From Patescibacteria group bacterium (GTDB lineage Bacteria > Patescibacteriota > Minisyncoccia > Phycocordibacterales > UBA9973), in the NCBI GenBank assembly GCA_040390725.1, contig JAZJXT010000001.1:6896-70895 (forward strand): 64,000 nt of DNA, written 5' to 3'. Positions within the stretch are counted from its first letter, which is position 1. Every line of letters starts with the position of its first letter. Shown here one piece after another: positions 19,363 through 63,352 of this stretch. The translations under genes were made by a program, and so were the position numbers. The notes under the pieces were generated by a model. That model did no database searches. It was given only the letters and a program-made list of their open reading frames with translations, and was not told where the DNA came from.

Positions 19363-19375
19363 TTTGTTTTATTGT

Positions 19376-19449
19376 CCGCCCTCTTGGATTCGAACCAAGG
19401 ACCCCAGAGGTATAAGCTCTGTGCTCTAACCAACTGAGCTAAGGGCGGA
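19376..19449 (-). tRNA. tRNA with anticodon loop CUUAUAC (anticodon UAU, Ile-type)
   Basis: Folded by hand into a cloverleaf: acceptor CCGCCCT/AGGGCGG, D arm GCTC-AGTTGGTTA-GAGC, anticodon stem CAGAG/CTCTG, T arm CTTGG-TTCGAAT-CCAAG. No CCA is encoded. Confidence 0.7.
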
Positions 19450-49444: not shown

Positions 49445-49529
49445 TTTAAAACTGCGGAAGCGGTGAGATTCGAACTCACGGTCCGGTTAGGGACGACGGT
49501 TTAGTAAACCGTTGATTTAAGCCACTCAT
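49445..49529 (-). tRNA. type II (long variable arm) Ser-like tRNA; anticodon loop reads UUACUAA (anticodon ACU if canonical)
   Basis: Folded by hand: acceptor GGAAGCG/CGCTTCC, discriminator G, 3-bp D stem, anticodon stem ACGGT/ACCGT, 16-nt variable arm, T arm GTGAG-TTCGAAT-CTCAC. No CCA is encoded. Confidence 0.65.
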
Positions 49530-49934
49530 CCACGCTTCCAATATACAGTTGTCAGGATTCCGCGGATGAGTGGCTCTCTCGCTTTGCTCGCGGGTGAAAG
49601 CAAAGTAGTTTGCTTTCACCCCATCTCATCCACGCTTCCAATACTTAATTTTTTTCGGATTTTTAAACTTAAAAATCCGATTGCGGGACACTCGAGTTAA
49701 GTACCCACGCGTTCAACTACCGTAAGGGTATTCTAGCATATTTTATGGTGGCAAAACTAGGCACTCGGGTCGCTAGGCGGTTTTTCAAAATGAGACAAAT
49801 GAGACACTAAATGTGTTTTTTGTGTTTGTGTCTCATTTTTGTCTAGGCAAAAACTTACCCACTTAATTATTTGACTATAATATCTTTTATTTGTTATCAT
49901 TAAACTATTATAATTTTAAAAAAAGTTAATAATC

Positions 49935-50159: not shown

Positions 50160-51485
50160 ATGAAACATGAAAACATAAAAATTGTTGAAGTTCCAATCAA
50201 TGAACTTCGAGAGTCGGAATATAATCCTCGCCAGCATTCCAAAGAGCAGAGTGACCAGCTCAAAGAATCAATTAAAAGATTTGGTCTAGTCGATCCCATA
50301 ATATGCAATGATGCGTCAGGTCGTGAGAATGTAATTATCGGCGGACATTTCAGAGCTGAAGTGGCGAAAGAAATGGGCATGGCAACTGTGCCGGTGGTGT
50401 ATGTAAAAGTTGAAGAGTTAGAAAAAGAAAAAGAGTTAAACATTCGTCTTAATAAAAACCAAGGTGAATTTGACCTAGATCTTTTGGCTAGTTTTGATGA
50501 ATCTTTTTTGTCTGATATTGGATTCGATTCAGAAGAAATTGATGAAATTTTTTTAGAAGATGCAATCGAAGAGCAGTTTGATTTAACCAAAGAGTTAGAC
50601 AAACTAGACATTAAAAGTATTTCGGTAAAGAAAGGAGATGTCTATGAAATTAATGGGTCGAGGTTGTGCTGTGGGGATTCAACCATTGAGGCAGACGTAC
50701 TAAGGTTAATGGGAGAAGAAAAAGCAGACATGGTATTTACTGATCCACCATATATTCTCGACTATCTTCACGGAAAAACAAGGAAAGGAAAAGCTACTGA
50801 AGGTTTTGGTTCAAAAAAGAACAGAAGGTATCTTGAAACAGAATCTCTGCCTGATAATTTTACAGATCTTTGGATGGCTAATGTTGCCAAAGTTCAGAAA
50901 CCCGATTTCTCTATTATTGTTTTTGAGAATCCAAAAAATCTTAGAATTATTTGGAATGAGTTAGAAAAATATTGGAAATACAGAAATACAATTACATGGC
51001 ATGTTCCAAACCGTGTCCAAGGATTTTCAGCAAAATATAAATTGTTTAATAAACATGATATTGCTGTGGTTGGAACTGGCGGAAATGTTGCATTAAACCT
51101 TGAGGAAGAAGATGAGTTGTTTCAAAATGAATATGAAAATGCCATTCTTGCAACGTCGGGCAAGCCACATTGGGAAGGTTATGGAAAAAATAAAAAATAT
51201 TGCCCAACTGATTTTATAGAACACATTGCCGCTGATGAAAAAAGTTCAGGTCAAGGGATTATTTTTGGAACTAAACCGTTAGAACTACTTATTCCGTACA
51301 TTAAGGTGTTAACAAAGAGAAATGACTTAATTTTGGAGCCATTTGGTGGATCCGGAAGTACTTTAATTGCAAGCATTAAAATGGGTCGAAGGTGTTTTCT
51401 GATGGAAAAATCGACTGTATATACTCAGGTTATTCTGAAACGCTGGGAGAAAGAAACTAATCAAAAAGCGATAAAAATAAAATGA
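50160..51485 (+). CDS. ParB-like nuclease domain fused to a DNA methyltransferase (N4-C/N6-A class, DPPY motif); no restriction endonuclease is evident nearby
   Basis: N-terminal IIGGHFRAEVA (ParB/Srx) motif; FTDPPYIL motif IV; C-terminal AdoMet-binding EPFGGSGST. Confidence 0.8.
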   Translation: MKHENIKIVEVPINELRESEYNPRQHSKEQSDQLKESIKRFGLVDPIICNDASGRENVIIGGHFRAEVAKEMGMATVPVVYVKVEELEKEKELNIRLNKNQGEFDLDLLASFDESFLSDIGFDSEEIDEIFLEDAIEEQFDLTKELDKLDIKSISVKKGDVYEINGSRLCCGDSTIEADVLRLMGEEKADMVFTDPPYILDYLHGKTRKGKATEGFGSKKNRRYLETESLPDNFTDLWMANVAKVQKPDFSIIVFENPKNLRIIWNELEKYWKYRNTITWHVPNRVQGFSAKYKLFNKHDIAVVGTGGNVALNLEEEDELFQNEYENAILATSGKPHWEGYGKNKKYCPTDFIEHIAADEKSSGQGIIFGTKPLELLIPYIKVLTKRNDLILEPFGGSGSTLIASIKMGRRCFLMEKSTVYTQVILKRWEKETNQKAIKIK

Positions 51486-51946
51486 GAGATATAGAAGACA
51501 AAAAGAGACTCATAGAAATACTTTCTGAGGTTCCATATATTATATATGCTTGCAAAAAAATTGGTATTGCAAGAGCCACTTTTTACCGTTGGTGCTCGGA
51601 AGATGAAGACTTTCACCAAGCTGTTTTAAAGGCTATGAAGTATAGCAGACAGGATGAATCAGAAAAGATAGAAATGAAAATGGCAAAAAGAGCCAAAGAA
51701 GGAGATTTTAATTCTGGAAAATTTTTCCTTGAACATAATGATGACAGATATAGGAAATACAAGCCAGAAAGAAATCCATATGATTTTGACCCGGTGCCTC
51801 TTTTAGAGTATTGTATTCCATACTTGGAATTTATGTTTGGACCGAATTTTGATCACAGTGCGATGCTTAAAAAAATTGAAACGATTGATATATCAGATCC
51901 AGAAGATAATCCGTCAAAGAAAAGCCTAAGATATGAAGTAAAGTAA
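51482..51946 (+). CDS. HTH protein resembling a phage terminase small subunit N-terminus
   Basis: ACKKIGIARATFYRWCSED HTH; overlaps the methyltransferase stop by 4 nt. Confidence 0.45.
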   Translation: MRDIEDKKRLIEILSEVPYIIYACKKIGIARATFYRWCSEDEDFHQAVLKAMKYSRQDESEKIEMKMAKRAKEGDFNSGKFFLEHNDDRYRKYKPERNPYDFDPVPLLEYCIPYLEFMFGPNFDHSAMLKKIETIDISDPEDNPSKKSLRYEVK

Positions 51947-53611: not shown

Positions 53612-55105
53612 ATGAAAGAATGGGCGCCACAGCTTAAATACCGAAAGGAAGACACAGAACCAAAGCCTAACTTCGGCGTGCTAGCTTCCCCGGAGGGGGG
53701 GGCAACAATAAAGAATTTGAAGGAGAAAAATGAAGCGCTGGAAGCTCTTATTAAGGAAGCTATTGTGAAACTTATACCCATACTTGAAAAACATAATCCT
53801 GATAAATTTGGTACTGGATTTATTACTAAATACTTAAGGTATAATTATAATAAGCTAGTAAAAAATCTTCCTGGGAATAAGGAAAATAAAACGGACTGGA
53901 TGCCATTTGACAGTCAGTTGCCAAAGAAATGGCAAGAAAGGTTTTATCTTCCGGAAAAAAGGTTAAAATTTTTTGCGGCTAAAATTGTTTCAATTTTAGA
54001 AAAAGAAAAGCCAGAATTTTTTACTCCGGGTTCAATAAAAAAAATGGATCCAAGTATCTATATGATATTGACACAGATGCTACCGAGGGATGAAGAAGAT
54101 AATATTGACTATAAACCCTTTGAAGAAGAATTACCGGAGGAATGGAAAAACAAATTTGAATATGGGAATATTTCTTTTCCGTATGTTGTCTTGAAATTTG
54201 TTTTATTACTTGAAAAAGAAAAACCTGAAGAGTTTAATGTGACTTATATAAGAGATTACGCACCTGACATTTATGGCATGCTAGATCGGATTTTGCCAAA
54301 AAATCAAAAAGGTGAGCCTGATTGGTTATACTTTAAAAGCCAATTGCCGGAAAAATGGCAAGAAAGGTTTACATATGAGGAAAAAAAACGTTTATCTTTC
54401 GAAGAATGTGTTTCAAAAGTAGTTGAAAAGTTAAACGAAAAAAAGCCGGAGCAATTTGGACCTATTTGGATTAAAGAAAATTGCGGGGATATTGTATATA
54501 ATGAACTGCGTAGAATTTTACCAAGAAAGGATAACCAAGATGACCAAATTGATTGGCAACCCTTTCTTGATAAGTTACCTAAGGAGTGGCTAGCAAAGTG
54601 GAAACATAAAAAAGATCCATATTACAAGCATCTAAAAGAGTTCCCGAGTAAGAAAGAATTAAGGCAGATATTATTAAAATACAAAAATTATGGAGATGCA
54701 CATGAAAATAAACTTTATGTTTTGCCTTATTATCCGAATCTTTCAAAAGATGACAGGATAATTGCCAATAAAATTGTAGGGGAAATAATAAAGTTGGCAC
54801 AGAAAGGCAGTAGTGCCGCACGAGAAATGCTCGAGTTAGACTTAAATTTTGTCTGTGAGGAATGGATACAAAAATACCCCGGATACCCTTTTGAATTGAA
54901 GCCGTGGAAGGATAAACCGGAACAGTTAAAGAAACTTATACGGGGCTGTATTTATAATTATCAGAATAAGGGATCATTCTTTTCATACTTGTTTACGGCT
55001 TTAAAAATGGGCAGACCAACTTCAATTAAAATGGTAGAATTTGATGAGGGCTACATGAAAAAATTAAATGATTCAATGATGGAAGGGTTTGAGGATCAGT
55101 TATAA
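53612..55105 (+). CDS. hypothetical protein with 3.5 tandem roughly 70-aa repeats (DWxPFxxxLPxxWxxxF...LEKEKPExF)
   Basis: The repeats are visible in the translation. A G8 homopolymer lies at 53695-53702 near the 5' end. Confidence 0.6.
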   Translation: MKEWAPQLKYRKEDTEPKPNFGVLASPEGGATIKNLKEKNEALEALIKEAIVKLIPILEKHNPDKFGTGFITKYLRYNYNKLVKNLPGNKENKTDWMPFDSQLPKKWQERFYLPEKRLKFFAAKIVSILEKEKPEFFTPGSIKKMDPSIYMILTQMLPRDEEDNIDYKPFEEELPEEWKNKFEYGNISFPYVVLKFVLLLEKEKPEEFNVTYIRDYAPDIYGMLDRILPKNQKGEPDWLYFKSQLPEKWQERFTYEEKKRLSFEECVSKVVEKLNEKKPEQFGPIWIKENCGDIVYNELRRILPRKDNQDDQIDWQPFLDKLPKEWLAKWKHKKDPYYKHLKEFPSKKELRQILLKYKNYGDAHENKLYVLPYYPNLSKDDRIIANKIVGEIIKLAQKGSSAAREMLELDLNFVCEEWIQKYPGYPFELKPWKDKPEQLKKLIRGCIYNYQNKGSFFSYLFTALKMGRPTSIKMVEFDEGYMKKLNDSMMEGFEDQL

Positions 55106-56843: not shown

Positions 56844-57596
56844 TTATACTATTAAAAATACATCAATAGCTAAATGATCCGAAATCCTATCGGGAAGTAA
56901 TTTACAGTTTACTTTTAAATTTTGTGTTATAAATTTATTTACATAAATATGGTCAGTTTTTAATTTCACAGATATTCCTATTGACGCAAAAAAGTTTGCA
57001 ATTTTTGTTATAAAAAATGGTGTTTGTTCGGTATATCTACTGTCGAGAGTAGGACCTAATGTTTTGTTAATTCTTGAAAATTCCGGAGAAAGTATTTTTT
57101 CTTGGTTAGTAATTTCAAAAGGAAATCCAGTATTGAAGTCCCCGCCGATAACTATAGGATTATTTAAATTTTCTTCTAAAATTTTTGCTTTTATAATTTC
57201 CAACTGCTTTAATCGTTTGTGCGGTCTTAGCCCCGGGTGCAGGTGAATTGTACTTATAAATATTACCTCATTGTCTTTTGTAAATTTTCCACCAACAAAA
57301 CCCCAACCTCTGCGTGGCGAGTCAGTATTTAATATTGCAAATGACAAAAAAGTATCGTCAGTTAAAACAAATTCTTTTTTGTATAAAATACACACACCTG
57401 TATTTTCTCCTAAATTAGAATCGTAAGAGTTAAGTATTTTATAATTTTGAGAAGCGTTTTTTATTAAAACAATAATTTGTTCCGTTATCTCTTGTAAAAG
57501 TAAAAAATCATATTTTTCTTCTTTTAAAATATGAATAATAAAGTTTTCAAAATTTGGTTGGTATGCTTTTTGGCAATTGAGGGTGAAAATTTTCAT
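56844..57596 (-). CDS. endonuclease/exonuclease/phosphatase (EEP) family protein
   Basis: N-terminal LLLQE, GGDFNTG, and C-terminal SDHLAI motifs. Confidence 0.7.
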   Translation of the reverse strand: MKIFTLNCQKAYQPNFENFIIHILKEEKYDFLLLQEITEQIIVLIKNASQNYKILNSYDSNLGENTGVCILYKKEFVLTDDTFLSFAILNTDSPRRGWGFVGGKFTKDNEVIFISTIHLHPGLRPHKRLKQLEIIKAKILEENLNNPIVIGGDFNTGFPFEITNQEKILSPEFSRINKTLGPTLDSRYTEQTPFFITKIANFFASIGISVKLKTDHIYVNKFITQNLKVNCKLLPDRISDHLAIDVFLIV

Positions 57597-57599
57597 TTT

Positions 57600-58394
57600 T
57601 TAATTAGAAACTTCTTTTGAAGTAAAATACTGATAAACATAAATAAAAGCTGGCACGCCAAATAGTATCCACGATAACTCTTCTATGGGAAAACTAAGAT
57701 CTCCAATATGGACCATTCCCAAATACTGACTACCGAGAAATCCCCATTGATGTGTTGCTAACGCGGAAAGTTCTATGATAAAAAGCATCATGCTGAACGG
57801 TAAACATTGTAGCCAAAGCTTACAAAAGCGCTTAGCTGATTTAAGAAGTCCAATAATGGTGGGTGTACAGAAGAAGATAAGAACAAACCATAGATAAAAA
57901 TACGGAATTGTTAGTAATTTACTGTTTGTGTAAAGTATGAAAATTTCAACAAAAAGAACGGTGAATAAAATAATTACAAATTTATTAAATCGAGGTAGAA
58001 TTTTTATTTGCAAATTTTGTTCAGTAAAAAAGTAATTATATAAAGACACAATTAAATATACATAGACAACTGCCCATATAACTGTTTCAAACGGAATTAA
58101 ATTAAAAATTCGTCTAGGAAAAACAGATGTCTCCCACCAGGCATTATTAAACAAAGCGAGACTGTCAGTCAAAAGAACAAATGGTAAACCCGTAAGCAAT
58201 GCGAACTTTGCGGTGGATTTAAATAAACTAGGACGACGAAATGTTATGTAAATTGAGGGAACCAAAAAATAAAGACCGGTAGAAATTAAATAATTCAGTT
58301 TAAAAGTAATAGTAAAGTAAGCAATAATAGCTGTATAAATGACTACTCCAATCAGCTCAATTATTTTTTTATTAGACCTAGGTATTGGAAACAT
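57600..58394 (-). CDS. hypothetical integral membrane protein (264 aa)
   Basis: Seven or eight transmembrane helices; family uncertain. Confidence 0.5.
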   Translation of the reverse strand: MFPIPRSNKKIIELIGVVIYTAIIAYFTITFKLNYLISTGLYFLVPSIYITFRRPSLFKSTAKFALLTGLPFVLLTDSLALFNNAWWETSVFPRRIFNLIPFETVIWAVVYVYLIVSLYNYFFTEQNLQIKILPRFNKFVIILFTVLFVEIFILYTNSKLLTIPYFYLWFVLIFFCTPTIIGLLKSAKRFCKLWLQCLPFSMMLFIIELSALATHQWGFLGSQYLGMVHIGDLSFPIEELSWILFGVPAFIYVYQYFTSKEVSN

Positions 58395-58483: not shown

Positions 58484-59044
58484 TTACCTGCTTAAATATC
58501 TTCTTATAATTCTTTCTTTTGATTCTTGTTGCTTTGTTTTAGTTAGCATCTTTTCCCAGTCCCAAATCTTTCCACTGGGACCAAAAGCTTTGAGATAATA
58601 TTCAAGATAAATTTTAGGATTTATAAAAATAACATCATCTATTTTTTTCCAACCCAAAGCCATTTTATAATCATAGCCAATTCTGTGACCAATTGATCCT
58701 ATCCATTGATGAGCAAGAACGTTTCTCCAGTCGTGGATTGACTTGGCAATGGTGGAAAACTTAGTATCAGCAGTATCACCATCAACAAACTTTTTAAGAA
58801 ATAACTTATATCCTTTTAAACTAGTTTTATTAAACAATCCTTCAGAAATAGTAAGTGCCACCGAATGGACACCAAGAAACAGTAAAGACGTCTGATAGTT
58901 ATCTTGTTGAGCTGTTAGGGTAATTTCATTATTAAAGAAATTTGCTATTGAGTTAAGTAGGGTTGCAATAATTTCATATGGTGGACCGTTCTGAAATCTT
59001 TCTAGGCGTTTTTCTTTTGTTTCTCCGTGGGAATTATTTTTCAT
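58484..59044 (-). CDS. HEPN-like protein (186 aa), a candidate toxin or defence component
   Basis: DWRNVLAHQ matches the HEPN Rx4-6H motif (R-N-xxx-H form). The size fits HEPN domains. Forms an operon with 59056-60666. Confidence 0.5.
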   Translation of the reverse strand: MKNNSHGETKEKRLERFQNGPPYEIIATLLNSIANFFNNEITLTAQQDNYQTSLLFLGVHSVALTISEGLFNKTSLKGYKLFLKKFVDGDTADTKFSTIAKSIHDWRNVLAHQWIGSIGHRIGYDYKMALGWKKIDDVIFINPKIYLEYYLKAFGPSGKIWDWEKMLTKTKQQESKERIIRRYLSR

Positions 59045-59055
59045 TTCATTTAAAA

Positions 59056-60666
59056 TTAAAGTAGGTTTTCTTTCTTAGGAAGAAAACGACTTTCCATCGT
59101 ATTAAGTACTTGGATGCATTTTATGAGAATATCTTCAAAAACTACCCAAAGGTCTTTACTATCTATGTCAAAGAATTTTTTAATCTTTTCATAATTACTA
59201 CCTTTTAGATGAGCAACGCTTGTCGAACGCAAAGTTTGTAGGTTTCTAAAAAATTCAATCATTTTAGGCGCAGAAAATCCATGAGCCATAGAAAAAGCTT
59301 CAAACTTATCTATGCCTTTAGGATTAACTTTACTAATGGTTAACCCTTTTTTAAGTTCTTTTTCGTTGAGTGAGTCGATCATAATTTTTGTTATTGATGC
59401 TACCTGATCATCAAACTCTTTTTGCTCATTTGTCGTCGGAACATGAAGTGATTTCATGTGATGCGTATCACCAATAGATAGCGGTTTAAATAGATACCAT
59501 CCAAATTGTTTATTCCATGCCTCTTGAAAAATTTCAAATTTCTCTTTGAAATAAAGTTCTGGATGTTCAGAGTCTGCAAAATTACCTTCAATATTTCGTG
59601 TAAAATCTGCATGACTAATTTTTCTCCTACTTGGAGTGAGGTTAAAAGCTTTCCAGTGAGTCTGTTCCTTGTATGGCAAGGATTTTAAGTCTCCCAACCA
59701 TATTACCACGTGATCCCTATGATTAATCATAGCCCTTAAGCCCCAGAAACCTTCAAATTTTATATATCCATCTTCAACAGAATATTTACCTGGATTATCA
59801 TAGTATTTTTTGAGTACCTCTCGCTTAAAAAAGACTGGTGTTAGAAAACCAGGACTGGACTGATAATCAGTATTACAACTATAATTAACTTCTTTTCCAT
59901 TTTCATCTACTCCAATTATAAATTCTTCAAACTTTTCATCAGCTCTCGTTTGCCAAATAGTTGGATTAAAGTCTTTTAGTCCTGCAATCAATTTTTTACC
60001 AAGCAACCATCCCTGAGATTTATTATCACCTAAATTAAGACTTCGAATGCATAGTGAATAGGTATAATTATCTCCCTTTTTAATTTCGTCGATTTTTTGC
60101 TGATTTAATTCCTCGAGTGTTTTGTCTAAAAATCTCATGGCTTCAAAATAAATTGCGAGATGCATTTGTTTTGCTGATAAAAACTCTTTTATAAATTTTA
60201 ATTTGATTTCTACCTTATTCTTACTAATTTGAACAACTTCGTCTTCATCTCCATAGTCGTTAGTATAAGTAAATATTTTTTTATCATCGATGATTTTTTC
60301 AAAGAGATTAAAATACAACCGAAATTCTTCTGAGACCTCAAGACAGGCTTTTTCTTTACCACTAAATGATCTCCAATATACTAATGACTCTATACCTTCA
60401 TCGGAAAAACGATAATATTCAGTTTTTGATTTCCCCGCCAGATAGTGGGTCATAAAACCTGGACGTCCTCCATCGATTCGTAAATCCCAGTCGTATTTTT
60501 CCAAAACCTCTTTTACTTTATTATCAGCTATCAGTGCAGAAAAATAGGTACCCCTATCAATGTCAACGGAATCTAAAAATTCAAAAACTGTGACCCATTC
60601 CGTTTTTCCTAGATCACCTTCAATGTTTTTTATTAAATCGGTAAATTTTAAATCTTTTGTATTCAT
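59056..60666 (-). CDS. hypothetical protein (536 aa) with a C-terminal HEPN-like Rx5H motif
   Basis: C-terminal LRSTSVAHLKG; no other recognisable motif. A 12-nt gap separates it from the downstream HEPN-like gene. Confidence 0.5.
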   Translation of the reverse strand: MNTKDLKFTDLIKNIEGDLGKTEWVTVFEFLDSVDIDRGTYFSALIADNKVKEVLEKYDWDLRIDGGRPGFMTHYLAGKSKTEYYRFSDEGIESLVYWRSFSGKEKACLEVSEEFRLYFNLFEKIIDDKKIFTYTNDYGDEDEVVQISKNKVEIKLKFIKEFLSAKQMHLAIYFEAMRFLDKTLEELNQQKIDEIKKGDNYTYSLCIRSLNLGDNKSQGWLLGKKLIAGLKDFNPTIWQTRADEKFEEFIIGVDENGKEVNYSCNTDYQSSPGFLTPVFFKREVLKKYYDNPGKYSVEDGYIKFEGFWGLRAMINHRDHVVIWLGDLKSLPYKEQTHWKAFNLTPSRRKISHADFTRNIEGNFADSEHPELYFKEKFEIFQEAWNKQFGWYLFKPLSIGDTHHMKSLHVPTTNEQKEFDDQVASITKIMIDSLNEKELKKGLTISKVNPKGIDKFEAFSMAHGFSAPKMIEFFRNLQTLRSTSVAHLKGSNYEKIKKFFDIDSKDLWVVFEDILIKCIQVLNTMESRFLPKKENLL

Positions 60667-60791: not shown

Positions 60792-62114
60792 ATGAATAAC
60801 ACAATATCAATACCAATTGGGACAATGGTAAAAGAAGTAGTCCCCGTAAGAGTAAAGTACTGTTTGTATGCAAGAAAATCAACGGAATCGGAAGAACGCC
60901 AAGTCCTATCAATCGATAGCCAAATAAAGGAAATGTTGCAGATGGCAGAAAGAGAAGGGCTTGAGATTGTAACAATGAAAAGAGAAAGTCACTCCGCCAA
61001 AGAAACAGGACAGCGACCAATCTTTAATGAAATAATAGAAGAACTAAGGCAAGAGAAATTTAACGGAATACTAACTTGGGCACCGGATAGAATAAGTAGA
61101 AATGCAGGCGACCTTGGTAAAATAGTAGATTTGATGGATTCAGGAAAACTTCATGAGATACGAACTTTTGGACAAAGATTTACAAACAGTCCAAGTGAAA
61201 AATTCTTGTTAATGATTTTAGGAAGTCAGGCAAAACTTGAAAATGACAACCGAGGAATAAATGTAAAAAGAGGATTACGCACACGAGCCGAGATGGGGCT
61301 ATGGGCAGGAATGGCACCATTGGGATATTTAAATCAAAATCGAATGGACAAGAAGTGTCAGGTAATAATTGATCCATTAAGAGGTCCGGTAATTAAAAGA
61401 ATGTTTGAAAAAGTCGCATATGAAAAGTATTCAGGAAGAAGGATATATAACTGGTTAAAATTTGAATTGAATTTTTACACAAGAGGAAATAAACCACTTA
61501 CCCTGAGTGGAATATACCGACTACTGGAAAACCCTTTTTACTACGGAGTGTTTGAAAAACCATTAAAGAGTGGAAATTGGTATCAAGGTAAACACGAACC
61601 TCTAATAACTCAAGAATTATTTGAAAAATCCAAAGCACAACTGAAGAGAGACAACATACAAAGAGAAAACAAAGAATTTGCATTTACCAAATTATTCACT
61701 TGTGGGTACTGCGGAAGTGGAATATCCGCAGAAGAAAAATGGAAACAACTTAAGAACGGAACAGATGCAAGATATATTTACTATTCTTGTAGTAGGGCAA
61801 GAGATAGGAATTGTAAAAACAAATATATACGAGAAGAAGAATTAATAACTGAATTGCTTAAAATTATAGACAAGGTAAATATTAATGAGCTTGGAATGAG
61901 GCAAAAACTCGAAGATGAAATTGCACGATTTAATATTTTTCAAAGGTCAGTATTGGGCAGTACGGATAAAATTAAAAATAATCAGGAGACGGACATACGA
62001 AATTATGCTAAATATATTCTCAAAGAAGGTTCGACGAGTGAGAAAAGAGAATTGCTTGGGAATTTGAGGAGTAGGATAGTTTATAAGGATAAGATACTTA
62101 CATTACTAAATTAA
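60792..62114 (+). CDS. large serine recombinase (resolvase/invertase catalytic domain + recombinase domain + zinc ribbon)
   Basis: YARKSTESEE...SIDSQ catalytic Ser region, and a C-terminal CGYCGS...C zinc ribbon. Confidence 0.85.
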   Translation: MNNTISIPIGTMVKEVVPVRVKYCLYARKSTESEERQVLSIDSQIKEMLQMAEREGLEIVTMKRESHSAKETGQRPIFNEIIEELRQEKFNGILTWAPDRISRNAGDLGKIVDLMDSGKLHEIRTFGQRFTNSPSEKFLLMILGSQAKLENDNRGINVKRGLRTRAEMGLWAGMAPLGYLNQNRMDKKCQVIIDPLRGPVIKRMFEKVAYEKYSGRRIYNWLKFELNFYTRGNKPLTLSGIYRLLENPFYYGVFEKPLKSGNWYQGKHEPLITQELFEKSKAQLKRDNIQRENKEFAFTKLFTCGYCGSGISAEEKWKQLKNGTDARYIYYSCSRARDRNCKNKYIREEELITELLKIIDKVNINELGMRQKLEDEIARFNIFQRSVLGSTDKIKNNQETDIRNYAKYILKEGSTSEKRELLGNLRSRIVYKDKILTLLN

Positions 62115-63352
62115 GAATATTTGTTTTTATATTTATACTTTTTCTTTTGTAAATTTAAATGATATTGGTGAAATTTATCGTCGTCCTTTTCTGGATCTAA
62201 GCTCATTGCTTGAAATGACCTTCCTCTTCTGTGTGGACCAAATAAATGAGCAAATTCACCCTTGAACCAATTAAGAGTTCTATGCTCACTGTAAGTATTT
62301 GTTTCTTTGTTATAATCTGGATCTTCAGGTACTCTTCCGTATTCATCCATTGATCCTCCTGGTCCAGGCCCACCACCCCAGAATATTTCTCCTCCCAGGT
62401 GTATGGGGCGAGGGTCAGGCATTAATAAATAACCTTCACCGTATTTATTCCAATTTGATTTTGAAACATATTTTTCTGGATATAACCAATCTTTTTTTGC
62501 TCCAGCAATATGACGGAAAGCCCTATTTTTTATAATGAAATTTATTTCACGTACCTCTTGCTCATTTAAATGACGCATAGTTTGTATATCAGTAAATTTA
62601 AAAATTGCGTTGCGAAATAAGTTTGAATTTGGTCGAGGCTTAGTAGCGGATTGATATGGGTTTCGTACCCATGAAAGATTTGTAAGTATTAGTATCTTGT
62701 CTAAAGACAAAGGAAATATAGTATGACTACCTTGAAGAAATATATCAGGATCATTCGCATTTCGACATTGCTGGGACCTTGGTCCGCATTCACGATTATA
62801 TATAGTTATTGGATGGTCAGAAATAATAAATTTGGTTTCTGAATTAGAAGCATCAGCAATTAACCATACTGATTCGGTCCATATTGCACAATTCATTCTT
62901 CCAAGTGTTGTCATTGATGACAGTATATTATATTTATTATCAGTATTTAACTTGTCTTTAAGCCACGTCAAACCTTTTGGGGTTCTTAACTTTTGAGTAC
63001 TCATATAGATCATAATATCCTCAAAGTACGTTTTCCAGTCTTTGAGTGGATAAGCAAATTTTTCAAAATATTCCACAGCTTCTTGTCCTTTTCGGTCTAT
63101 TTTTCCGAAAAAGTATTTTTCAATATCTTTAGATTCAATAGACTGAATTTTTGTTGTATATAAATCCTTTTCCACAAAACATTTTTTAGATCCTTGTTTT
63201 ATAAGGGCTTTACTGTGGTACGGTATTTTATCAGGACTCATGAAAGTATTTGGTTTCATATCTAAGTAAAAAAGTTCCGACTCACTGGGTAACATAAACT
63301 TTTTTTGGTACCATTGAGGCACATAATGATGATTTTTATATTCTTCAGGCAT
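62111..63352 (-). CDS. hypothetical protein, DUF4238-like (N-terminal HHYVPQWY motif)
   Basis: The N-terminal motif resembles DUF4238, recalled from memory and unverified; convergent with the recombinase and overlapping its stop by 4 nt. Confidence 0.5.
   Translation of the reverse strand: MPEEYKNHHYVPQWYQKKFMLPSESELFYLDMKPNTFMSPDKIPYHSKALIKQGSKKCFVEKDLYTTKIQSIESKDIEKYFFGKIDRKGQEAVEYFEKFAYPLKDWKTYFEDIMIYMSTQKLRTPKGLTWLKDKLNTDNKYNILSSMTTLGRMNCAIWTESVWLIADASNSETKFIISDHPITIYNRECGPRSQQCRNANDPDIFLQGSHTIFPLSLDKILILTNLSWVRNPYQSATKPRPNSNLFRNAIFKFTDIQTMRHLNEQEVREINFIIKNRAFRHIAGAKKDWLYPEKYVSKSNWNKYGEGYLLMPDPRPIHLGGEIFWGGGPGPGGSMDEYGRVPEDPDYNKETNTYSEHRTLNWFKGEFAHLFGPHRRGRSFQAMSLDPEKDDDKFHQYHLNLQKKKYKYKNKYS

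What the first reader, a model, noticed from the sequence alone, without database searches (positions are those of the whole stretch)
58484..60666. Two-gene cassette with HEPN-like motifs in both products: candidate undescribed defence or abortive-infection system
The two-gene operon is on the minus strand, with a 12-nt gap, and sits next to the serine recombinase. The 186-aa product carries DWRNVLAHQ, a canonical HEPN Rx4H motif of the R-N-xxx-H type. The 536-aa product has no recognisable N-terminal domain but ends with LRSTSVAHLKG, an Rx5H motif. HEPN RNases are the effector of many Abi, TA and CRISPR-associated systems. I do not recognise this pair as a named system.
Basis: partly seen in the sequence, partly recalled or inferred. 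Interest (0 to 1): 0.75.

Follow-up and report, generated by a model that had tools for sequence, protein, structure and literature searches.

The report
Two unrelated HEPN genes, adjacent by chance
The two genes are real and each probably encodes a HEPN-type RNA-cutting protein of the kind bacteria use against phages, but they belong to two independent, uncharacterised families that occur side by side only in this genome, so they are not a conserved two-gene system.

Summary
Two minus-strand ORFs (536 aa 'A', 186 aa 'B') are separated by 11 nt (not 12) and lie beside a large serine recombinase. Both Rx4-6H motifs are strongly conserved: B R107-H112 in 58/58 aligned homologues, A R480-H486 in 42/44 diverse ones. 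Predicted structures are confident (pLDDT 88-89). They resemble HEPN proteins for all of B and for A's C-terminal third.

None of 80 A loci carries B and none of 80 B loci carries A, and the nearest relatives (81-86% identity) are also unpaired.

A is a widespread stand-alone family in bacteria and archaea. It is a lone moron in an E. coli P2-like prophage and the first cargo gene of a Pseudomonas GMT island. DefensePredictor lists the E. coli member as a predicted, untested defence gene.

B is a small family of 129 clusters; every named source is Patescibacteria. It is typically the last gene behind very different upstream genes (R-M, CBASS, HEPN, protease). It travels with the ParB-methylase/small-terminase/serine-recombinase element also present in the window.

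Verdict: two new members of a known kind (HEPN defence or addiction genes), sitting together as mobile-element cargo. Moderate interest.

The parts
59056..60666 (-). Gene A, 536 aa: uncharacterised N-terminal domain plus C-terminal HEPN-like domain. Member of a widespread stand-alone family.
59632..60666 (-). A residues 1-345: beta-rich region of unknown fold, presumed sensor/regulatory part. Holds the most conserved block (FF.KEVL.KYY ... LGDL..LP.KEQ.HWK.FN).
   Evidence: Secondary structure; invariant F280, V284, L327, E334, Q335, W338 in the diverse alignment; no significant PDB fold match by Foldseek; no family hit.
59077..59619 (-). A residues ~350-530: all-helical C-terminal domain, HEPN-like.
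59209..59229 (-). A motif R480-S-T-S-V-A-H486 (Rx5H), putative catalytic site.
   Evidence: R kept 42/44 and H 44/44 in diverse members; appears as RNKLAGH / RNEIRGH in 21-26%-identical members.
59045..59055 (.). 11-nt A-B spacer (ttttaaatgaa). No terminator between the genes; co-transcription is likely but not shown.
58484..59044 (-). Gene B, 186 aa: minimal HEPN-like protein with a C-terminal beta/alpha extension. Small family whose named sources are all Patescibacteria.
58709..58726 (-). B motif R107-N-V-L-A-H112 (RNxxxH, Rx4H), putative catalytic site.
   Evidence: Invariant 58/58; 119/120; codons read.
60792..62114 (+). Large serine recombinase of the mobile element. Its family accompanies B, not A.
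   Evidence: Pfam; homologues (up to 91% identity) in 14 B loci and, at a looser threshold, 4 A loci.
50160..51946 (+). ParB_N-N6_N4 DNA methyltransferase and a small-terminase-like HTH gene: backbone genes of the same element family. Assigning them to one element with A, B and the recombinase is an inference.
   Evidence: Pfam; homologues (73-76% identity) in 10 and 6 B loci versus 1 and 0 A loci; GC drops to 0.30-0.34 from 50 kb; tRNA-Ser at 49454-49539.

Best explanation
A and B are two independent HEPN-domain genes that happen to be neighbours as cargo of a Patescibacteria mobile element (ParB-methylase, small-terminase-like gene, large serine recombinase). A is a self-contained single-protein module. 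An N-terminal ~345-aa beta-rich domain of unknown fold is inferred to be the sensor. It would control a C-terminal HEPN domain whose R480/H486 site, after dimerisation, cuts RNA and stops growth or aborts infection. B is a minimal HEPN protein (R107/N108/H112) that would act as a homodimeric RNase. It is characteristically the last gene of operons whose upstream genes differ from locus to locus, and it rides this element family. Shown here: the ORFs, motif conservation, predicted folds, independence of the two families, and their genomic contexts. Inferred: RNase activity, dimerisation, the trigger, and the defence or addiction role.
Confidence: 0.6

Rival explanations
1. A and B do work together here. 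B is a plug-in HEPN module that couples functionally to whatever gene lies upstream, acting as a back-up or guard effector in the manner of PrrC inside an R-M operon. A-B would be one instance of a general 'X-B' two-gene design.
For: B's upstream neighbour is same-strand within 30 nt in 45/67 loci, versus 131/350 for other adjacent pairs in the same loci (OR 3.4, p=1e-5). Its downstream junction is not enriched (14/54). Examples are Cap15->B at 8 nt, Eco57I-type MTase->B at 4 nt, a HEPN protein->B at 1 nt in L166, and A->B at 11 nt with no terminator.
Against: The upstream partners are extremely heterogeneous: membrane proteins, XRE regulators, proteases, methylases, and even the recombinase itself. 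One 186-aa protein is unlikely to recognise them all. A functions alone elsewhere. Compact CPR genomes have short intergenic gaps in general. A conserved gene flanking a variable cargo slot would give the same pattern.
Confidence: 0.2
2. B is not a defence effector but a maintenance or backbone gene of the mobile element, for example an addiction toxin or regulator. It sits at the edge of a variable cargo hotspot, and A is simply one cargo gene inserted there.
For: B co-occurs with element genes (recombinase 14 loci, ParB-MTase 10, small-terminase-like 6), whereas A largely does not. B is highly conserved (>=58% identity over the top 120 hits) while its upstream neighbours are swapped. In L002, B lies at the element edge, close to host housekeeping genes.
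Against: Only 8 of 47 B loci with >=3 kb of flank on at least one side show the recombinase. B was not found in viral contigs. No antitoxin-like partner is conserved next to B.
Confidence: 0.15
3. A and B form a toxin-antitoxin pair: one HEPN protein is the toxin and the other neutralises it.
Against: TA partners co-occur, and these never do (0/160 loci). There is no MNT nucleotidyltransferase or other known antitoxin domain. A is solitary in E. coli.
Confidence: 0.03
4. One or both HEPN-like domains are non-catalytic (ligand-binding or regulatory, as in KNTase C-terminal domains or MtlR), and the genes have no role in conflict.
Against: The R and H of the motif are the most strictly conserved residues, as expected for catalysis. 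The contexts are mobile elements and defence loci, not metabolic operons.
Confidence: 0.08

Closest known systems
HepT/HEPN toxins of HEPN-MNT (type VII) toxin-antitoxin systems (PDB 7ae2, 5yep, 8xdj)
   Different: No MNT partner next to A or B. No sequence-profile similarity: PF01934 HepT-like hit one of 58 B members at E=0.14. B has an extra C-terminal beta-sheet/helix extension.
Single-gene HEPN abortive-infection or defence proteins: AbiV (9bj5), AbiD/F (Abi_2), ApeA, and DS-11 (CBS-HEPN) of DefensePredictor
   Different: No Pfam or PADLOC model of these families matches A or B. A's N-terminal domain is not CBS or any known domain. There is no experimental phenotype.
Avs3 (SeAvs3, PDB 8dgc; AVAST type III)
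   Different: A has no STAND/NACHT NTPase or TPR sensor (no Pfam hit) and is a quarter of the size. I could not determine which Avs3 domain is matched.
PrrC/RloC-type latent RNases embedded in restriction-modification operons (from my own knowledge; Anantharaman et al. 2013 class them with HEPN)
   Same: An analogy for B's habit of sitting as an extra gene at the end of R-M, CBASS and other defence operons.
   Different: B lacks the N-terminal ATPase domain of PrrC/RloC. Its partners are far more diverse. No interaction has been shown.

Membership tests
HEPN superfamily (gene B) | Conserved Rx4-6H motif, usually with a polar residue after R | tested here: met
   R107-N-V-L-A-H112 invariant in 58/58 and present in 119/120 homologues.
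HEPN superfamily (gene B) | Four-helix up-and-down HEPN fold | tested here: met
HEPN superfamily (gene B) | Sequence-profile membership in a curated HEPN family | tested here: not met
   No Pfam, NCBIfam, PADLOC or PHROGs hit. No PDB sequence hit.
HEPN superfamily (gene A, C-terminal domain) | Conserved Rx4-6H motif | tested here: met
   R480/H486 kept in 42/44 diverse members, with H invariant. Takes the RNxxxGH form in divergent members.
HEPN superfamily (gene A, C-terminal domain) | HEPN fold | tested here: inconclusive
HEPN RNases (both genes) | Metal-independent RNase activity from a dimeric composite site | not testable with these tools
   Needs biochemistry or multimer modelling.
Conserved two-gene defence system (A+B) | The two genes co-occur and are adjacent across genomes | tested here: not met
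   0/80 and 0/80 loci. The closest relatives are unpaired. A is solitary in E. coli.
HEPN-MNT toxin-antitoxin | Adjacent MNT (minimal nucleotidyltransferase) antitoxin | tested here: not met
   No NTP_transf_2-type gene beside A or B in the window.
Avs / STAND antiviral NTPases | STAND (NACHT-type) NTPase core plus a C-terminal repeat sensor | tested here: not met
   No P-loop or TPR family hit in any of 68 members. Only a partial structural resemblance to 8dgc_A.
GAPS systems of GMT islands | Homology to GAPS1-13 | tested here: inconclusive
   No similarity of A or B to the N-terminal ~126 aa of eight candidates: GAPS2, 4 (first gene), 5, 7, 8, 9, 12 and 13. GAPS1, 3, 6, 10 and 11, and the full-length sequences, were not compared.

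The most novel reading that the evidence does not exclude
B is a universal plug-in HEPN effector or guard for the mobile immune repertoire of Patescibacteria. It would be translationally coupled to, and functionally dependent on, whichever defence gene precedes it (R-M, CBASS, another HEPN protein, here A), firing when that primary system is triggered or disabled. A+B would then be a heteromeric HEPN RNase pair.
Probability: 0.15. Interest if true: 0.65.

Novelty: new member of a known kind. Interest (0 to 1): 0.4.

Why it matters
HEPN RNases are recurrent effectors of prokaryotic immunity. Family A is a large, phylogenetically very broad family (CPR, Actinobacteria, Proteobacteria, Bacteroides, Cyanobacteria, archaea). 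It has no database model and has an N-terminal domain of unknown fold. It is directly testable because an E. coli P2-prophage copy exists and has already been flagged by machine learning as a likely defence gene. Family B adds to the very thin picture of immunity in Patescibacteria, and it shows an unusual 'last gene behind anything' arrangement on a mobile element. Correcting the 'two-gene system' reading also matters: any experiment should test A alone and B alone before testing them together.

Tried and rejected
- TA pair or obligate two-gene system: rejected by zero co-occurrence and the unpaired nearest relatives.
- Shared contig of P0050 and P0148 (both 2779 nt): two different contigs, a coincidence.
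- 'HEPN always pairs with HEPN upstream of B': only 2-3 of 44 tight partners carry an RN..H motif.
- 'A plus a variable small nuclease' in the CPR clade: the HNH-like partner recurs only in L005/L010, which are the same contig; the other downstream genes are unrelated (PIN, HsdR, GNAT-like, or spurious ORFs).
- A as a PD-(D/E)xK nuclease: I saw no conserved D...(D/E)xK pattern in the N-terminal region on reading the alignments. This was inspection only.
- A as a GAPS system: no similarity over the available N-terminal fragments.
- A as a system named in the P2/P4 hotspot papers: not named there.
- Any validated DefensePredictor DS protein: the A and B signature motifs are absent from the stored supplement sequences.
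- Sequence searches of the PDB with three profiles: nothing.
- Rfam on 56-64 kb: nothing.
- Promoter and terminator scans: not above chance.
- The afdb50 fold library was unavailable.
- B in viral contigs: none. A in the GenBank phage collection: none.

Full report
**Observation**

The window holds two co-oriented minus-strand ORFs: B (58484-59044, 186 aa) and A (59056-60666, 536 aa). They are separated by 11 nt, 'ttttaaatgaa', not 12. A large serine recombinase (Resolvase, Recombinase and Zn_ribbon_recom domains) lies at 60792-62114 on the plus strand, divergent from A.

B carries DWRNVLAHQ (R107-x4-H112). A carries LRSTSVAHLKG (R480-x5-H486), 47 residues from its C-terminus.

A bare Rx4-6H pattern is not informative on its own. 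Composition predicts 0.65 such patterns in B and 1.2 in A, and A actually has four. What makes these two sites real is their conservation:
- B's motif is invariant in 58/58 aligned homologues and present in 119/120 database hits.
- A's R480-H486 is kept in 65/68 close and 42/44 diverse homologues, with H486 invariant.
- A's other three patterns are poorly kept, in at most 15/44 diverse homologues.
- In members only 21-26% identical to the window protein, the site reads SRNKLAGH or LRNEIRGH, the more canonical RN...H form.

**What the proteins are**

Neither protein matches any model in Pfam, NCBIfam, PADLOC or PHROGs. This holds when every member of the family alignments is scanned on its own, and when divergent A members are used. 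Three profile searches of PDB sequences found nothing meaningful.

AlphaFold2 models built on family alignments are confident. B has pLDDT 89.0 and pTM 0.87. A has pLDDT 88.1 and pTM 0.70.

- MNT-HEPN toxins 7ae2, 5yep and 8xdj
- YutE (1ylm)
- the kanamycin nucleotidyltransferase 6nlt
- Csx1 (8y7f)
- AbiV (9bj5)
- the HEPN-domain protein 4nqf

**The pair is not conserved**

I fetched 80 genomic loci encoding A relatives (one genome per species) and 80 metagenomic loci encoding B relatives. I then searched six-frame ORFs with HMMs of both families. No A locus has a B, and no B locus has an A. The same is true of the further loci fetched individually.

The nearest relatives are also unpaired:
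- An 83%-identical A (L009) is followed by an unrelated 330-aa ORF.
- A 78%-identical A (L005/L010) is followed, within about 10 nt, by a weakly HNH-like 138-aa gene.
- An 81%-identical A (L178) is followed by a 96-aa gene and an SNase-domain gene.
- An 86%-identical B (L182) follows an unrelated ORF.
- An 82%-identical B (L180) follows an Eco57I-type methyltransferase at 4 nt.
- A 73%-identical B (L002-L004) follows a CD-NTase + Cap15 CBASS pair at 8 nt.

The only contig length shared between the two hit lists, apart from the window's own contig, turned out to be two different contigs.

**Family A is a widespread stand-alone gene**

Relatives occur in many groups:
- Patescibacteria
- Actinobacteria (Streptomyces, Actinomadura)
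- Proteobacteria (Psychrobacter, Pseudomonas)
- Bacteroides
- Cyanobacteria
- Firmicutes
- Planctomycetes
- archaea (Methanophagales, Bathyarchaeia, Woesearchaeota)

Relatives also occur on 15 plasmids, always annotated as 'hypothetical protein', in 8 viral contigs, and in 11 of 5,426 complete E. coli genomes.

The immediate neighbours of A form no recurrent family. Together with B's neighbours, 274 ORFs fall into 234 clusters. A's neighbours include HsdR, PIN, HicA, Uma2 and resolvases, but also housekeeping genes. Its downstream genes are unrelated to each other.

Two annotated contexts are especially clear:
- In E. coli S42, the homologue WP_052318713.1 (543 aa, motif VRSTGVAHRKG) is a single opposite-strand gene inside a P2-like prophage. 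It lies between the virion-morphogenesis gene and baseplate gene V.
- In P. syringae plasmid pPma4326F, the homologue is the first gene after the Gamma-Mobile-Trio GmtY/GmtZ/GmtX. This island is listed in the GMT paper's dataset (bioRxiv 10.1101/2023.03.28.534373), and that paper reports GMT cargo to be rich in defence systems.

A is not one of the eight GAPS candidates I could compare over the ~126 N-terminal residues available.

The DefensePredictor study (PMC13092281) lists WP_052318713.1 in Table S10. Its mean log-odds is 7.36, against a stringent cut-off of 4, and it is labelled 'Predicted novel defense gene'. Its only remote similarity there is to Avs3A (coverage 0.29, probability 67.8). 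It is absent from the table of tested units. None of the stored sequences of validated systems carries the A or B signatures. Family A has therefore been flagged computationally but is neither characterised nor named.

**Family B is a small add-on gene in Patescibacteria**

An exhaustive profile search of 1.84 billion representative proteins found only 129 clusters. Nearly all are stand-alone proteins of about 170-225 aa, and there is no tail reaching into other families. All named sources are Patescibacteria lineages or unclassified bacteria.

B's upstream neighbour is on the same strand within 30 nt in 45 of 67 loci. The figure is 131 of 350 for other adjacent ORF pairs in the same loci (odds ratio 3.4, p=1e-5). 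Its downstream junction is not enriched (14/54).

The upstream genes are extremely varied:
- type I, II and III R-M components
- SMODS/AGS_C cyclases and Cap15
- a trypsin-like protease
- a metallo-beta-lactamase-fold protein
- XRE regulators
- membrane proteins
- a SEC-C protein
- a Ymh/Aga-type HEPN protein (L166; PADLOC PD-Lambda-3_B 2.8e-9, Aga_HEPN 2.4e-7)

Only 2-3 of the 44 tightly coupled partners carry an RN..H motif, so a 'HEPN pairs with HEPN' rule does not hold.

B also travels with a mobile-element backbone that the window itself contains. Homologues of the window's genes occur as follows:

| Window gene | B loci | A loci | Best identity |
|---|---|---|---|
| Serine recombinase (60792-62114) | 14 | 4 | 91% (L166), 82% (L161) |
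| ParB_N-N6_N4 methyltransferase (50160-51485) | 10 | 1 | 76% |
| Small-terminase-like gene (51482-51946) | 6 | 0 | 37% |

The window's GC content falls to 0.30-0.34 from about 50 kb, just after tRNA-Ser at 49454-49539. A is therefore best read as one of many variable genes occupying the slot upstream of B on this element.

**Most likely mechanism**

Established knowledge of HEPN domains, summarised in the sources cited above, says they are typically dimeric RNases whose two Rx4-6H motifs form a composite site. Applied here:
- A is most likely a single-polypeptide sensor-effector. Its N-terminal beta-rich domain senses an infection-related cue and licenses the C-terminal HEPN RNase, causing growth arrest or abortive infection.
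- B is most likely a minimal homodimeric HEPN RNase. It would serve the element as an additional defence or addiction function.

These activities, the trigger, and how B is kept silent are all inferred, not shown. Co-transcription of A and B in the window is likely (11-nt gap, no terminator) but not demonstrated.

**Rivals**

1. B couples functionally to whatever lies upstream, so A-B is one of many 'X-B' pairs. This is supported by the coupling statistic. It is weakened by the partners' heterogeneity and by A's autonomy elsewhere. Confidence about 0.2.
2. B is a backbone or maintenance gene at the edge of a cargo hotspot. Confidence about 0.15.
3. A and B are a toxin-antitoxin pair. This is essentially refuted by the co-occurrence data.
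4. The HEPN-like domains are non-catalytic. This is unlikely given that R and H are the most conserved residues.

**Novelty and verdict**

Both are uncharacterised families of a well-known kind: HEPN-based conflict genes.

Interest is moderate (0.4). The most useful outcome is that family A is broad, has an unknown N-terminal fold with a reproducible but unexplained resemblance to part of Avs3, and can be tested directly in E. coli.

Noticed in passing
window 62111-63352 (-): A 413-aa DUF4238 protein (Pfam E 3.7e-16) lies convergent with the serine recombinase, and the two ORFs overlap by 4 nt. It has no PADLOC, NCBIfam or PHROGs hit. It may be further cargo of the same element.
   Followed up: partly
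window 53612-55105 (+): A 497-aa protein built of about four internal repeats (motif ...EKxKPExF...DWxPFxxxLPxxWxxxF). It has no Pfam hit. Its only relative among the fetched loci is the gene immediately downstream of B in L008 (6590-7141, 28% identity).
   Followed up: partly
window 19374-19448 (-) and 49454-49539 (-): ARAGORN reports tRNA-Ile with anticodon TAT and tRNA-Ser with anticodon ACT. From my own knowledge, both are unusual anticodons for bacteria. The tRNA-Ser lies just before the low-GC segment that starts at about 50 kb.
   Followed up: no
L166 4100-4993 and 4995-5564: In the locus whose recombinase is 91% identical to the window's, B is preceded at 1 nt by a 297-aa protein with a Ymh/Aga-type HEPN domain ('WWRNNLSHG'; PADLOC PD-Lambda-3_B and Aga_HEPN). 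This is a second, unrelated example of a HEPN gene directly upstream of B.
   Followed up: partly
L002 6483-8564 (also L003, L004): A CD-NTase + Cap15 CBASS pair in a Staskawiczbacteria genome is followed at 8 nt by a B homologue as a third gene. It lies near a ParB-MTase and an S24 peptidase, only a few genes from dnaA and dnaN.
   Followed up: partly
L176 4685-5635: The most divergent A homologue, on a viral contig, is preceded by a 316-aa protein ending in 'LRNKLSTSHGAG'. By eye this is an Abi_C-like HEPN motif; I did not scan it against family libraries.
   Followed up: no
L178 6620-9591: An 81%-identical A homologue sits in a cluster with an SNase-domain gene, a reverse transcriptase (RVT_1), a trypsin-like protease and a large RHS/Tc-toxin gene. 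This looks like a conflict island in another CPR-like contig.
   Followed up: no
window 56844-57596 (-) and 57600-58394 (-): Directly downstream of B lie a 264-aa multi-pass membrane protein and an endonuclease/exonuclease/phosphatase-family protein (Pfam E 7.3e-12), on the same strand with short gaps. None of the fetched A or B loci has homologues of them, so they are probably host or unrelated cargo genes.
   Followed up: partly
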